Shown: positions 44 through 1,183 of the stretch, one piece after another
How positions within the stretch are numbered: position 1 is the first letter of the stretch
How the letters are laid out: each line of letters starts with the position of its first letter
The notes under the pieces: model-generated
Databases searched by the model: none
Told to the model about the DNA's origin: nothing
Seen by the model: only the letters and a program-made list of their open reading frames with translations
Translations under genes and position numbers: made by a program
NCBI RefSeq assembly: GCF_003334815.1
Contig: NZ_QOWO01000095.1
Length of the DNA: 1,721 nt
Direction: 5' to 3' (one strand)
From: Escherichia coli
GTDB lineage: Bacteria; Pseudomonadota; Gammaproteobacteria; Enterobacterales; Enterobacteriaceae

Positions 44-1183
44 ATGAATTTTGCTGCTCTTAAAAACAATACGGGTACTCTTTATCTGTCCAGTTTTAAT
101 CATGAGCATGCACCTGAATGCCCCATGTATCGTCAGTTATCCGGAAATGAAGAGGAAACATCCTTCGGAGCAAGCCGGCATCCCGTTAGCACCCGTATAA
201 ATTACAGAAACTTTTTACCACCTGATGACAGTAATTCTGTTATCAGACTGCAGGCCCGCTCTGCTTACCATAATGGTGAGCGCTCCTCCGTTCGCAAGAA
301 ACGTCCGCGCCTTGGCCGTTTACTCCTGTCGCTTATTGAAGATGCAGGGCTGAATAAACTGGATTCCCTGGCTAATCCCCGTATCCGGACTAATTATCGT
401 GAGTGTCTTGATGCCATACGGCAGGTTACACTACAGCAGGAGTATATTCGGGGAAGAGCCTTATCTGAAATTATCCATTTCCGGCCAGGAATGTCTGAAA
501 GGTCTCAGGAGCGGTTAATGGAAACGCTGGAGAATTCAGAACGACACTGGCCTGCCAGAAGAAAGCATATGTTCTTTCAGATTTTTATGGCGCAGCACAT
601 CTGTCGTGATGCTGTGGAAATTCACTGGGCGAACGGTAATATTCAGGTCATCAGACCTGTGCGGGGGATCAGTATTAATGGTGAAGCGCAGGGCGGAATA
701 CGTCCCCCTTACTGGGTTATTCTTGCTTTTTGCCGGAGTGCCGATGGCAGAATCATCTGCAGTGAAGGGTATGCTCATGCTCTTTATCAACTGACATGTC
801 CGGTGCCTGTGGACAGCAAACTGGAACGAAACACGCTCACTGCTCTTCTGAATGTGGCCAGCTGGCTTAAAAGAAAGCCAGGTACGCCGGAATTAAGTCT
901 GGAAAGGCCCCTGTTTGATACAGAAGTTTATGTTAATGGTGAAAAGAAATATGTACTGCCGGATTTCATTGTCACAGCAAGGGCTCCTGACGGAAAGACG
1001 GCCAGAGTGGTCATCGAAACGATGGGATATGAAGACAGTGATTACTGCGCGAGAAAATCCAGGCAGCATACCGGCATGAAGCAGATTGGTGTTCTGCATA
1101 CCGATCCACCGAAATGGCTGGATAACGATCATCCCCCTTTTAAGAAACATATGTACGGTGTTTTTATGCATCTCAGGTACTGA
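44..1183 (+). CDS. Uncharacterized protein, 379 aa; C-terminal region has a PD-(D/E)xK / Vsr-like endonuclease-type motif (tentative)
   Basis: Longest ORF in the window, ATG 44 to TGA 1181-1183, with no competing long ORF. A possible weak RBS, GGGAG at 28-32, lies 11 nt upstream of the ATG. The reading frame has no stop between position 2 and 44, so the true start could lie upstream of the window. Residues about 301-345 read YVLPDFIV...RVVIETMGYEDSDYCARKSRQH (D307 at nt 962-964, E325 at nt 1016-1018), the hPD ... hhhE pattern of restriction-endonuclease-like folds. I vaguely recall an unnamed backbone ORF (possibly called yagA) upstream of cib on IncI1 plasmids, but I cannot confirm this is it, so no symbol is given. 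Confidence 0.8.
   Translation: MNFAALKNNTGTLYLSSFNHEHAPECPMYRQLSGNEEETSFGASRHPVSTRINYRNFLPPDDSNSVIRLQARSAYHNGERSSVRKKRPRLGRLLLSLIEDAGLNKLDSLANPRIRTNYRECLDAIRQVTLQQEYIRGRALSEIIHFRPGMSERSQERLMETLENSERHWPARRKHMFFQIFMAQHICRDAVEIHWANGNIQVIRPVRGISINGEAQGGIRPPYWVILAFCRSADGRIICSEGYAHALYQLTCPVPVDSKLERNTLTALLNVASWLKRKPGTPELSLERPLFDTEVYVNGEKKYVLPDFIVTARAPDGKTARVVIETMGYEDSDYCARKSRQHTGMKQIGVLHTDPPKWLDNDHPPFKKHMYGVFMHLRY

What the first reader, a model, noticed from the sequence alone, without database searches (positions are those of the whole stretch)
44..1183. Uncharacterized 379-aa protein encoded directly upstream of, and co-oriented with, an SOS/iron-regulated colicin gene
This is the only substantial gene in the window without a function I can assign. 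It has its own putative terminator, so it is probably not co-transcribed with the colicin. It sits in what looks like colicin-plasmid DNA, where accessory functions (phage defence, exclusion, anti-restriction, plasmid competition) tend to cluster. Its C-terminus carries a nuclease-like signature (separate finding). The N-terminal two thirds, including a basic patch VRKKRPRLGR and predicted helical segments, match nothing I recognise. A single-protein nuclease-based defence or exclusion function is one hypothesis; a plasmid maintenance or DNA-processing role is equally possible.
Basis: partly seen in the sequence, partly recalled or inferred. Interest (0 to 1): 0.6.

Follow-up and report, generated by a model that had tools for sequence, protein, structure and literature searches.

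The report
Uncharacterized plasmid nuclease gene yagA
The ORF is real but cut off by the window edge: it is most of yagA, a very common, catalogued but functionally unstudied gene of IncI1-type conjugative plasmids that encodes a 448-aa zinc-motif protein ending in a Bax1-like DNA-nuclease domain.

Summary
The ORF at 44..1183 exists, but its start is wrong. The reading frame is open to the window's first base. The annotated gene (yagA, WP_001132032.1) starts 164 nt upstream and encodes 448 aa, not 379. The missed N-terminus is conserved and holds half of an invariant CxC...Hx3C zinc motif.

yagA is identical in ColIb-P9. It occurs on about 1,400 plasmid records (89% conjugative), in 17% of complete E. 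coli genomes and on no phage. No paper assigns it a function, and it is not the ColIb ibfA/abi gene.

It is a divergent branch of the DUF1173-type architecture: zinc motif, a region without solved relatives, and a C-terminal PD-(D/E)XK domain. The nuclease core aligns with archaeal Bax1. YagA D376 and E394 fall on Bax1's D305 (mutationally tested) and E318 (assigned from structure), and E330/D376/E394/K407 are conserved across the superfamily.

The colicin linkage is specific to IncI1. Elsewhere, neighbours are plasmid maintenance, UmuDC-like and conjugation genes. R64 lacks yagA and carries the phage-exclusion gene ibfA in the same slot.

Best reading: a dispensable stand-alone DNA endonuclease. 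Its role is unresolved: inter-element conflict about 0.35, processing of the plasmid's own DNA about 0.3. It is a known hypothetical gene, not a new system.

The parts
1..1183 (+). yagA coding sequence, residues 56-448 plus the stop codon. The true start codon lies 164 nt upstream of the window, so the gene is 5'-truncated by the window edge.
   Evidence: Annotated CDS L001 4649-5995 = 448 aa; window base 1 = L001 4813; frame open at window 2-43; AAGGAG Shine-Dalgarno before the upstream ATG. N-terminus conserved in 44 homologs.
44..46 (+).
   Evidence: Residue numbering. Invariant C60 and C62 and the conserved N-terminus lie upstream of it.
14..121 (+). Putative zinc-binding motif C60-x-C62 ... 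H91-x3-C95 (codons at 14-16, 20-22, 107-109, 119-121).
   Evidence: All four residues are invariant in the close alignment A1 and in the ~20%-identity superfamily alignment A2. The same CxCxnHx3-5C motif is described for DUF1173 (PMC3045609). Metal binding itself is inferred.
290..355 (+). Basic patch VRKKRPRLGR (residues 152-161) at the end of a disordered linker, running into a conserved helix (residues 157-173, RLGRLLLSLIEDAGLN).
   Evidence: pLDDT <50 for residues 135-152; helix 158-169 at pLDDT >90. R153, A160, R161, L162-L164, L166, D169 and N173 are >=90% conserved, and the motif is visible in the superfamily consensus. Function unknown.
569..808 (+). Beta-rich middle domain (residues ~245-324) with invariant INGE (280-283), R289, Y292, C308 and Y312-A-H314-A. 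No solved structural relative.
812..1180 (+). C-terminal PD-(D/E)XK nuclease domain of DUF790/Bax1 type (residues 326-448). Candidate catalytic residues: E330 (824-826), D376 (962-964), E394 (1016-1018), K407 (1055-1057).
1210..1253 (+). Terminator-like hairpin (13-bp stem, 8-nt loop) followed by TCCGGTTTTT, 27 nt after the yagA stop codon.
   Evidence: Consensus scan. RNA fold -20.1 kcal/mol, z = -2.83 against shuffles. Termination in vivo not shown.

Best explanation
yagA encodes a 448-aa cytoplasmic protein that works as a stand-alone, metal-dependent DNA endonuclease.

An N-terminal CxC...Hx3C zinc module and a middle region without solved relatives (helices plus a beta-barrel-like domain) are proposed to select the substrate. 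The C-terminal PD-(D/E)XK domain of the DUF790/Bax1 type cuts, using E330, D376, E394 and K407. The closest sequence relative of the catalytic core (Bax1) and several of the closer structural matches (VRR-Nuc, Hjc) are structure-specific nucleases. The substrate is therefore most likely branched or single-strand/double-strand junction DNA, not a specific sequence.

The gene is an autonomous, dispensable cargo cassette with its own terminator in the variable region of IncI1-type conjugative plasmids.

Biological role I consider most likely: conflict between mobile elements, that is, cutting replication or entry intermediates of an invading phage or a rival plasmid.

Shown here: gene boundaries, conservation, fold class, motif alignment to Bax1, distribution and dispensability.
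Inferred: zinc binding, catalytic activity, structure-specific substrate and biological role.

Rough step probabilities: active nuclease 0.7; structure-specific rather than sequence-specific 0.5; conflict role 0.35.
For: - Catalytic core: superfamily and domain-only profiles hit four Bax1 orthologs on one motif (best E=0.0012), placing D376 on AfBax1 D305 and E394 on E318. D305A in AfBax1, or D301A in SsBax1, impairs or abolishes cleavage of bubble and fork substrates (PMC7293015). E330, D376, E394 and K407 are invariant in 30 members at about 25-35% identity. The zinc ligands are invariant in 48 members.
- Autonomous cassette: own terminator-like hairpin. No partner gene is conserved across 34 loci.
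- Dispensable cargo: the complete R64 plasmid has no homolog (best tblastn E=0.27), and the ColIb-P9 segment 2596-10950 has no counterpart in R64. About 19% of E. coli carriers hold only partial copies.
- Conflict context in IncI1: yagA sits beside the colicin and immunity genes. In R64 the slot next to the fopA-like gene holds IbfA, an ATPase-TOPRIM protein shown experimentally to abort phage infection (PMC12111858; PMC8004404).
- Some distant members lie beside SIR2-HerA plus a PLD nuclease, Abi_2, AbiEii, or a methylase with an AAA_5 gene.
Against: - No experiment exists on YagA or on any DUF1173-type protein.
- No PADLOC model matches YagA or 10 distant members. The protein is absent from 50,697 phage records.
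- Across 34 loci the recurrent neighbours are plasmid maintenance and damage-tolerance genes (ResD-like recombinase 9, UmuC-like 9, ParM 7, UmuD-like 6, ParA 5) and conjugation genes, not defence genes. That favours the rival reading of a role in the element's own DNA metabolism.
- There is no methylase or other self-protection partner.
- The canonical Lys of the (D/E)xK motif is replaced (E394-T-M); K407 on the following helix is only presumed to substitute.
- The pairing of E330 with Bax1 E275 rests on topology; it was not aligned.
- Bax1 works with a helicase partner, and YagA has none nearby.
- The 2010 analysis judged DUF1173 to lack the active-site signature.
- The swap-slot argument rests on a single locus.
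Confidence: 0.35

Rival explanations
1. YagA is an accessory nuclease for the plasmid's own DNA. It trims or resolves branched intermediates (forks, flaps, D-loops, junctions) that arise during plasmid replication, multimer resolution, recombinational repair or establishment of the transferred strand. It improves inheritance or establishment without being essential, much as plasmid SSB, PsiB or ImpAB do.
For: - The family is almost confined to conjugative elements: 89% of 1,439 plasmid records are conjugative, no phage carries it, and 98% of E. coli copies are on plasmids.
- Recurrent neighbours are ResD-like recombinase, ParA, ParM/StbA, UmuDC-like polymerase and an orphan methylase.
- Homologs lie within a few kb of the replication or partition module in unrelated replicons: RepZ, Rep3, IncFII RepA, RepE and repABC.
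- Distant members sit beside SSB, topoisomerase III, an ArdC-like zincin, ParB-like proteins and T4SS genes.
- The catalytic core resembles the structure-specific repair nuclease Bax1.
- The middle domain gives weak OB-fold-like matches.
Against: - R64, a fully functional IncI1 plasmid, has no homolog.
- yagA is often disrupted in natural plasmids.
- Part of the rep/par adjacency is inherited synteny of one enterobacterial maintenance block, not independent association.
- No specific partner or target site was identified.
Confidence: 0.3
2. YagA is a solitary restriction-type endonuclease that recognises a DNA sequence or a DNA modification (type IV-like) through its N-terminal domains and cleaves foreign DNA carrying that mark.
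For: - The architecture, unknown N-terminal domains plus a C-terminal PD-(D/E)XK domain with no adjacent methyltransferase, is typical of type IV enzymes.
- There is a weak NCBIfam match to the BPTD_3080 restriction endonuclease family (E=0.05 and 0.009).
- One AFDB relative is annotated 'Restriction endonuclease'.
Against: - No SRA, EVE, PUA or other modification-reading fold was found in residues 1-326.
- The NCBIfam scores (11-14 bits) are far below the 800-bit cut-off.
- At sequence level the catalytic motif is closest to Bax1, not to restriction enzymes.
- There is no PADLOC match.
- A modification-dependent enzyme would be hazardous on a plasmid that moves between hosts with different methylation patterns (inference).
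Confidence: 0.1
3. The nuclease fold is catalytically inert. YagA would then act as a zinc-dependent DNA- or RNA-binding regulator or scaffold, as the 2010 analysis proposed for DUF1173 ('link at a structural rather than functional level').
For: - PMC3045609 reported no conserved PD-(D/E)XK signature in DUF1173.
- The canonical Lys position is Met396.
- The gene lies divergent from fopA, which encodes an RNA-binding regulator of plasmid replication control.
Against: - E330, D376, E394 and K407 are invariant in 30 diverse members and at least 90% conserved in 48 members at about 20% identity.
- Two of these residues align with Bax1 active-site residues D305 (mutationally tested) and E318.
- Bax1 shows the same E-x-x-G variant with Lys on the following helix and is an active nuclease.
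- fopA is not a neighbour of homologs outside IncI plasmids.
Confidence: 0.1

Closest known systems
DUF1173 (Pfam PF06666), an uncharacterized proteobacterial family described computationally by Laganeckas et al. 2010 (PMC3045609)
   Same: Length of about 400-450 aa. N-terminal CxCxnHx3-5C motif and a C-terminal PD-(D/E)XK-related domain that hits DUF790. Full-length Foldseek matches to AFDB models annotated DUF1173, with E 1e-27 to 1e-22 and TM about 0.5-0.6. One close homolog is named 'DUF1173 family protein' by UniRef.
   Different: YagA itself does not match the PF06666 HMM, and only 1 of 48 superfamily members does at E<=1e-3. Pfam files the C-terminus under a separate family, PF27227. 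In this branch the acidic triad and Lys are conserved, contrary to the 2010 statement that DUF1173 lacks an active-site signature.
Bax1 (DUF790, PF05626), the archaeal nuclease partner of XPB helicase; structures 6P66 and 6P4W
   Different: No XPB-like helicase lies next to any of 34 loci. Nothing resembling Bax1's N-terminal or Cas2-like domain was found in residues 1-326. The hosts are bacterial plasmids, not archaeal chromosomes. The match covers only about 40 residues at marginal E-values.
Structure-specific PD-(D/E)XK nucleases (VRR-Nuc/FAN1, Hjc Holliday-junction resolvase)
   Different: Those are small single-domain proteins of about 90-130 aa, whereas YagA has about 325 extra N-terminal residues. 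Sequence identity is 10-18%. No substrate data exist for YagA.
R64-type IbfA (ATPase-TOPRIM abortive-infection protein of IncI1 plasmids, related to HEC-04)
   Same: It occupies the equivalent slot in the IncI1 variable region, next to the FinO-domain gene. It is a single-gene cargo with a predicted nucleic-acid-cleaving domain.
   Different: The fold and sequence are unrelated. IbfA has an experimentally shown anti-phage phenotype and YagA has none. IbfA homologs are mostly chromosomal, whereas YagA is almost entirely plasmid-borne.

Membership tests
Pfam PF27227 (Endonuc-like_C) | Match to the family HMM | tested here: met
   A precomputed PF27227 hit is recorded for the 99%-identical cluster representative P0001 and for nearly all full-length homologs; the family name is given. 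The Pfam build behind profile_search lacks this family, so I could not re-run the match.
DUF1173 (PF06666) | N-terminal CxCxnHx3-5C putative zinc motif | tested here: met
   C60, C62, H91 and C95 are invariant in A1 (44 sequences) and A2 (48 sequences at about 20% identity). The motif definition comes from PMC3045609.
DUF1173 (PF06666) | C-terminal PD-(D/E)XK-related domain in a protein of about 400 aa | tested here: met
DUF1173 (PF06666) | Significant match to the PF06666 HMM | tested here: not met
   YagA gives no PF06666 hit at E<=10. Only 1 of 48 superfamily members matches at E<=1e-3, and 3 at E<=0.1. I therefore treat YagA as a sister branch of the same architecture, not a Pfam member.
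DUF1173 (PF06666) | Full-length structural similarity to family members | tested here: met
   Foldseek against AFDB50: many proteins annotated DUF1173 with probability 1.00, E 1e-27 to 1e-22, and alignments of 430-500 columns.
DUF790 / Bax1 nucleases | Three conserved acidic motifs (AfBax1 E275, D305, E318) | tested here: inconclusive
   D376 = D305 and E394 = E318 by profile alignment, E=0.0012. The motif I Glu was not aligned; invariant E330 on helix 1 is the inferred counterpart.
DUF790 / Bax1 nucleases | Significant match to the PF05626 HMM | tested here: inconclusive
   YagA itself scores E=0.3-0.4. 7 of 48 superfamily members match at E<=1e-3, best 5e-5.
DUF790 / Bax1 nucleases | Adjacent XPB-type helicase partner | tested here: not met
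   No helicase cluster recurs next to the gene in 34 loci.
Known anti-phage defence systems (PADLOC-DB v2) | Match to any defence-protein model | tested here: not met
   Zero families at E<=1 for the truncated and the full-length YagA, and at E<=0.1 for 10 distant members.
Type II restriction-modification | Cognate methyltransferase adjacent to the nuclease | tested here: not met
   None is adjacent in IncI1. An orphan methylase recurs several kb away in 6 of 34 loci but is not adjacent.
Type IV (modification-dependent) restriction | Recognisable modified-base reader domain (SRA, EVE, PUA and similar) | tested here: not met
ColIb-P9 ibfA / abi (T5 and BF23 abortive infection) | Being the same gene | tested here: not met
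   ColIb ibfA is a 114-aa ORF at NC_002122 13401-13745 on the minus strand; yagA is at 6669-8015.
Any nuclease family | Metal-dependent nucleic-acid cleavage | not testable with these tools
   Requires biochemistry.

The most novel reading that the evidence does not exclude
YagA and the wider DUF1173-type superfamily (775 clusters at 50% identity) would be a new class of single-protein immunity or competition nuclease used by conjugative elements. A zinc module and an unclassified, possibly OB-like, domain would recognise branched or single-strand/double-strand junction DNA of an invader, such as phage replication intermediates or the incoming strand of a rival plasmid. A Bax1-type active site would then cut it, with no modification-based self-marking. 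Such a system would be present in about one in six sequenced E. coli strains and on epidemic IncI1 resistance plasmids.
Probability: 0.25. Interest if true: 0.7.

Novelty: new member of a known kind. Interest (0 to 1): 0.42.

Why it matters
yagA is one of the most common uncharacterized genes on enterobacterial plasmids.

- It occurs in 905 of 5,426 complete E. coli genomes and on about 1,400 PLSDB plasmids, most of them conjugative IncI-complex plasmids that spread ESBL/AmpC resistance.
- It is also a frequent insertion site for resistance transposons.
- Showing that it is an active nuclease, and learning what it cuts, would give a first function to a superfamily of several hundred clusters found on plasmids and ICEs across Proteobacteria.
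- A conflict role would bear on phage-therapy outcomes and on which plasmids can coexist. A DNA-processing role would add a component to plasmid maintenance and establishment.
- Two-thirds of the protein has no solved structural relative, so a structure would be informative in either case.

As it stands, this is a catalogued hypothetical protein with a sharpened prediction. It is not a discovery.

Tried and rejected
- **Identity with the ColIb abi/ibfA gene.** This was a lead from memory. I rejected it because ibfA is a different, 114-aa ORF 5 kb away.
- **Family libraries.** Pfam, PHROGs, PADLOC and NCBIfam scans of the truncated and full-length protein gave only sub-threshold hits to DUF790 and to the BPTD_3080 restriction family.
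- **Single-sequence and close-family PDB searches.** These returned only noise. Only the diverse superfamily profile and the C-terminal-domain profile reached Bax1.
- **dN/dS between two IncI alleles.** The value was 0.48, from only 16 nucleotide differences, so it is uninformative.
- **Search for a conserved partner gene.** None exists across the superfamily. ResD-like recombinase and UmuDC-like genes recur only within the enterobacterial clade, as part of a shared block.
- **Colicin association.** It is not conserved outside IncI1 plasmids.
- **Failed look-ups.** P0085 is not on record; AP005147 is not in the collection, so I used NC_005014.1.
- **3D check of the active site.** Model coordinates are not exposed, so I could not measure whether E330, D376, E394 and K407 cluster in space.
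- **Other window features.** Rfam found nothing in the window. Repeats in the window look like chance matches. The 144-aa antisense ORF at 893-1327 is a shadow of the conserved gene.
- **LexA box near yagA's own start.** By eye there is none; I ran no tool on this.
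Full report
**Observation**

The window contains an ATG-to-stop ORF at 44..1183 on the + strand, 379 codons long. A terminator-like hairpin follows at 1210-1243 with a T-run: 13-bp stem, -20.1 kcal/mol, z = -2.8. After a 278-nt spacer comes the start of a colicin Ia/Ib gene at 1462. So the feature is there.

The start codon is an artefact of the window edge. 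The frame has no stop between base 2 and base 44. In complete plasmid records the annotated CDS (yagA, WP_001132032.1) begins 164 nt upstream of the window, at an ATG preceded by AAGGAG, and encodes 448 aa. The extra 69 residues are real. Forty-four homologs of 33-59% identity align from residue 1, and the invariant C60 and C62 lie upstream of M70, at window 14-22.

**Identity and prevalence**

- The window is 100% identical to many IncI1/I-complex plasmids; 1,344 PLSDB records match, mostly conjugative.
- The protein is 100% identical in ColIb-P9, NC_002122.
- tblastn finds the protein on 1,439 plasmid records, 89% of them predicted conjugative, and on none of 50,697 phage records.
- Among 5,426 complete E. 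coli genomes, 905 carry yagA DNA. 1,001 of 1,023 places are on plasmids, and 732 genomes have at least 80% of the gene in one piece, so about a fifth carry only disrupted copies.

**What is already known**

- Annotation calls it 'protein YagA'. Swiss-Prot holds a fragment as P04481, 'Uncharacterized protein in cib 5' region'.
- The paper that characterised the divergent neighbour FopA/YafB states that yagA is of unknown function (PMC7491321).
- Other papers use yagA only as a landmark or insertion site.
- My initial lead, that this might be the ColIb abortive-infection gene for T5/BF23, is wrong. ColIb ibfA is a 114-aa ORF at 13401-13745 on the other strand, 5 kb away.

**Family and architecture**

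- A word-indexed search gave 115 relatives, most carrying Pfam PF27227, 'Endonuc-like_C'.
- An exhaustive profile search gave 775 clusters at 50% identity with E<=1e-3, mostly 420-470 aa.
- In a 48-sequence alignment at about 20% identity, the invariant residues are C60, C62, H91, C95, S327, E330 and P358. At 90% or more are W238, P291, R331, K357, P375-D376-F377, E394, G397, Y403, K407 and M414.
- The CxC...Hx3C motif plus a C-terminal PD-(D/E)XK-like domain is exactly the architecture described computationally for DUF1173 in 2010 (PMC3045609).
- Foldseek matches the full-length model to many AFDB proteins annotated DUF1173, with E 1e-27 to 1e-22.
- YagA does not match the PF06666 HMM, and only 1 of 48 members does. 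I treat it as a sister branch of that architecture.

**Nuclease domain**

- The AF2 model is good: pLDDT 83, pTM 0.78.
- At sequence level, the superfamily profile and a C-terminal-domain profile both hit archaeal Bax1 (6P66_B, E = 0.0056 and 0.0012). Four Bax1 orthologs align on one motif, YagA RPDF...VIETMGY...EYxxRK against Bax1 IPDF...YIEIAGF...EYLRKK.
- By numbering, D376 = AfBax1 D305, E394 = E318 and K407 = K331.
- In AfBax1 the nuclease-domain active site is E275/D305/E318. It superposes on the VRR-Nuc triad, and D305A (SsBax1 D301A) impairs or abolishes cleavage of bubble and fork DNA (PMC7293015).
- E330, D376, E394 and K407 are invariant in 30 diverse members.
- The Bax1 alignment did not reach motif I. 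The pairing of E330 with E275 is therefore an inference from its position at the start of the first core helix.
- I could not measure 3D clustering because model coordinates are not exposed.

**The other two-thirds of the protein**

So 'matches nothing' holds for known folds, but the region is structured, conserved and contains the zinc motif.

**IncI1 context**

yagA lies in the variable region between repZ and resD. ColIb-P9 and R64 share DNA only at 1-2595, 10951-12066 and from 15609 onward. The complete R64 sequence has no yagA homolog (best tblastn E = 0.27).

In R64 the slot next to the fopA-like gene holds IbfA. IbfA is an ATPase-TOPRIM protein shown experimentally to abort phage infection (PMC12111858; PMC8004404). 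So yagA is dispensable for IncI1 replication, partition and transfer, and it sits in a cargo slot whose alternative occupant is a defence gene. Its immediate company consists of colicin and immunity genes, a toxin-antitoxin pair and a DEDDh exonuclease that matches a PADLOC candidate model.

**Context across the family**

I examined 34 independent loci from assemblies, PLSDB and a GTDB scan and clustered all neighbouring ORFs.

- No gene is conserved next to yagA across the superfamily, and no colicin occurs outside IncI1.
- Recurrent neighbours in the enterobacterial clade are a ResD-like recombinase (9), UmuC-like (9), ParM/StbA (7), UmuD-like (6) and ParA (5). A plasmid-type orphan methylase recurs in 6 loci, one enterobacterial and five of the Acidiphilium group.
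- Homologs sit within a few kb of RepZ, Rep3, IncFII RepA, RepE or repABC. Part of this adjacency is inherited synteny of one maintenance block.
- Distant members lie beside SSB and DUF3577, topoisomerase III, an ArdC-like zincin with ParB and a methylase-helicase, or T4SS genes.
- Known defence genes appear only sporadically: SIR2-HerA with a PLD nuclease, Abi_2, AbiEii, DUF4238.
- PADLOC has no model for YagA or for 10 distant members.

**How it most likely works**

- *Shown:* a conserved, autonomous, dispensable plasmid gene. Its product combines an invariant four-residue Cys/His motif, a structured region with no solved relative, and a PD-(D/E)XK domain whose core motif aligns with the active site of Bax1.
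- *Inferred:* it binds zinc; it is an active metal-dependent DNA endonuclease (about 0.7); and it prefers branched or junction DNA over a specific sequence (about 0.5), given its nearest catalytic relatives.
- *Role, two readings that are nearly level:*
  - Conflict between mobile elements (about 0.35). Supported by the IncI1 swap slot, the colicin/TA/Abi company, dispensability and a few defence-island-like loci.
  - Accessory processing of the element's own DNA (about 0.3). Supported by near-exclusive carriage on conjugative elements, maintenance, UmuDC-like and conjugation neighbours, and absence from phages and from PADLOC.
- *Less likely:* a type IV-like restriction enzyme (about 0.1) or an inert DNA-binding fold (about 0.1).

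**Comparison, novelty and score**

YagA works like a Bax1/VRR-Nuc-type nuclease fused to DUF1173-type N-terminal modules. It fails strict membership of PF06666 (HMM) and of DUF790/Bax1 (no helicase partner, no Bax1 N-terminal domains). It is in PF27227. It is a new, divergent member of a known but uncharacterized kind, not a new category.

What this analysis adds is the corrected gene boundary, the residue-level link to the Bax1 active site, and the finding that R64 has no yagA while ColIb-type plasmids carry it where R64 carries ibfA. I scored interest as moderate (0.42). The gene is extremely widespread on clinically important plasmids and two-thirds of it is structurally unclassified. But the finding is a catalogued hypothetical protein, and the defence idea remains untested.

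Noticed in passing
window 1333-1351, 1360-1388, 1393-1408: Colicin Ia/Ib control region. There is a Fur-box match, GTTAATGATAATCACTATC, with 2 mismatches to the 19-bp consensus and none expected by chance. A TTGACA-17-TAAATT promoter follows, then a LexA-like CTGTATATGTATCCAT box just downstream. The LexA match alone is not above chance in the simple scan.
   Followed up: partly
L027 (R64, NC_005014.1) 4845-8320 compared with L017 (ColIb-P9) 5713-11873: Between a FinO-domain gene (fopA-like) and a conserved pair of small ORFs (196 and 85 aa), ColIb-type plasmids carry yagA-colicin-immunity. R64 carries the ATPase-TOPRIM abortive-infection gene ibfA in the same position. This looks like a cargo-swap hotspot in the IncI1 variable region.
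   Followed up: yes
L017 12224-13225 (+) and 13401-13745 (-); also L004 1-929: In ColIb-P9 a DUF4238 protein (333 aa) sits immediately beside the 114-aa ORF annotated ibfA (T5/BF23 inhibition). A DUF4238 gene also lies near a YagA homolog on a Kosakonia plasmid. The DUF4238 protein has no PADLOC match. Whether it forms part of the classic ColIb abortive-infection phenotype is unclear.
   Followed up: no
L017 2982-3830: The ColIb-P9 '3'-5' exonuclease' next to the yacAB toxin-antitoxin pair matches the PADLOC DEDDh model (E=8e-29) and the candidate-system models PDC-S48 (E=8e-22).
   Followed up: no
L031 (JAIJJM010000080.1, 8.2 kb): A contig binned as a Collinsella sp. (Actinomycetota) MAG encodes a 100%-identical YagA. 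This is almost certainly an enterobacterial IncI plasmid fragment mis-binned into the MAG.
   Followed up: no
L044, L047, L048 (Acidiphilium sp. PA, three contigs): One Acidiphilium genome carries three paralogous YagA-family genes. Each is flanked by the same ATP-grasp-like (RimK-related) gene upstream and the same DsbG-like gene downstream, which suggests several related conjugative elements in one cell.
   Followed up: partly
L020 6626-9410: A distant family member sits last in a tight four-gene, same-strand cluster after three small ORFs of 74, 303 and 77 aa. A SIR2-HerA pair lies immediately upstream on the opposite strand and a PLD-family nuclease downstream. This is the only clearly defence-island-like context seen.
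   Followed up: no
window 305-355 (residues 157-173): The helix PRLGRLLLSLIEDAGLN, which follows the disordered basic linker, is among the best-conserved segments outside the zinc and nuclease motifs. It is visible even in the ~20%-identity consensus (RxPxLARxLxxLLxxAxLN). It could be a docking or DNA-contact element.
   Followed up: no
L023 (pSCU-478-1) 3001-3705; H1 (NZ_CP122819.1); L014 7001-8206: yagA and its homologs are often interrupted or truncated: by an IS3-family insertion in H1, by a flanking IS481 element in the Serratia plasmid, and as a 235-aa remnant next to IS30 and a NACHT-domain gene on an IncFIA plasmid. This agrees with reports of resistance cassettes inserted in yagA (PMC8004404).
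   Followed up: partly
window 893-1327 (- strand): The 144-aa antisense ORF overlapping the 3' end of yagA and the terminator clusters across loci only because it shadows the conserved gene. There is no evidence that it is a gene.
   Followed up: partly
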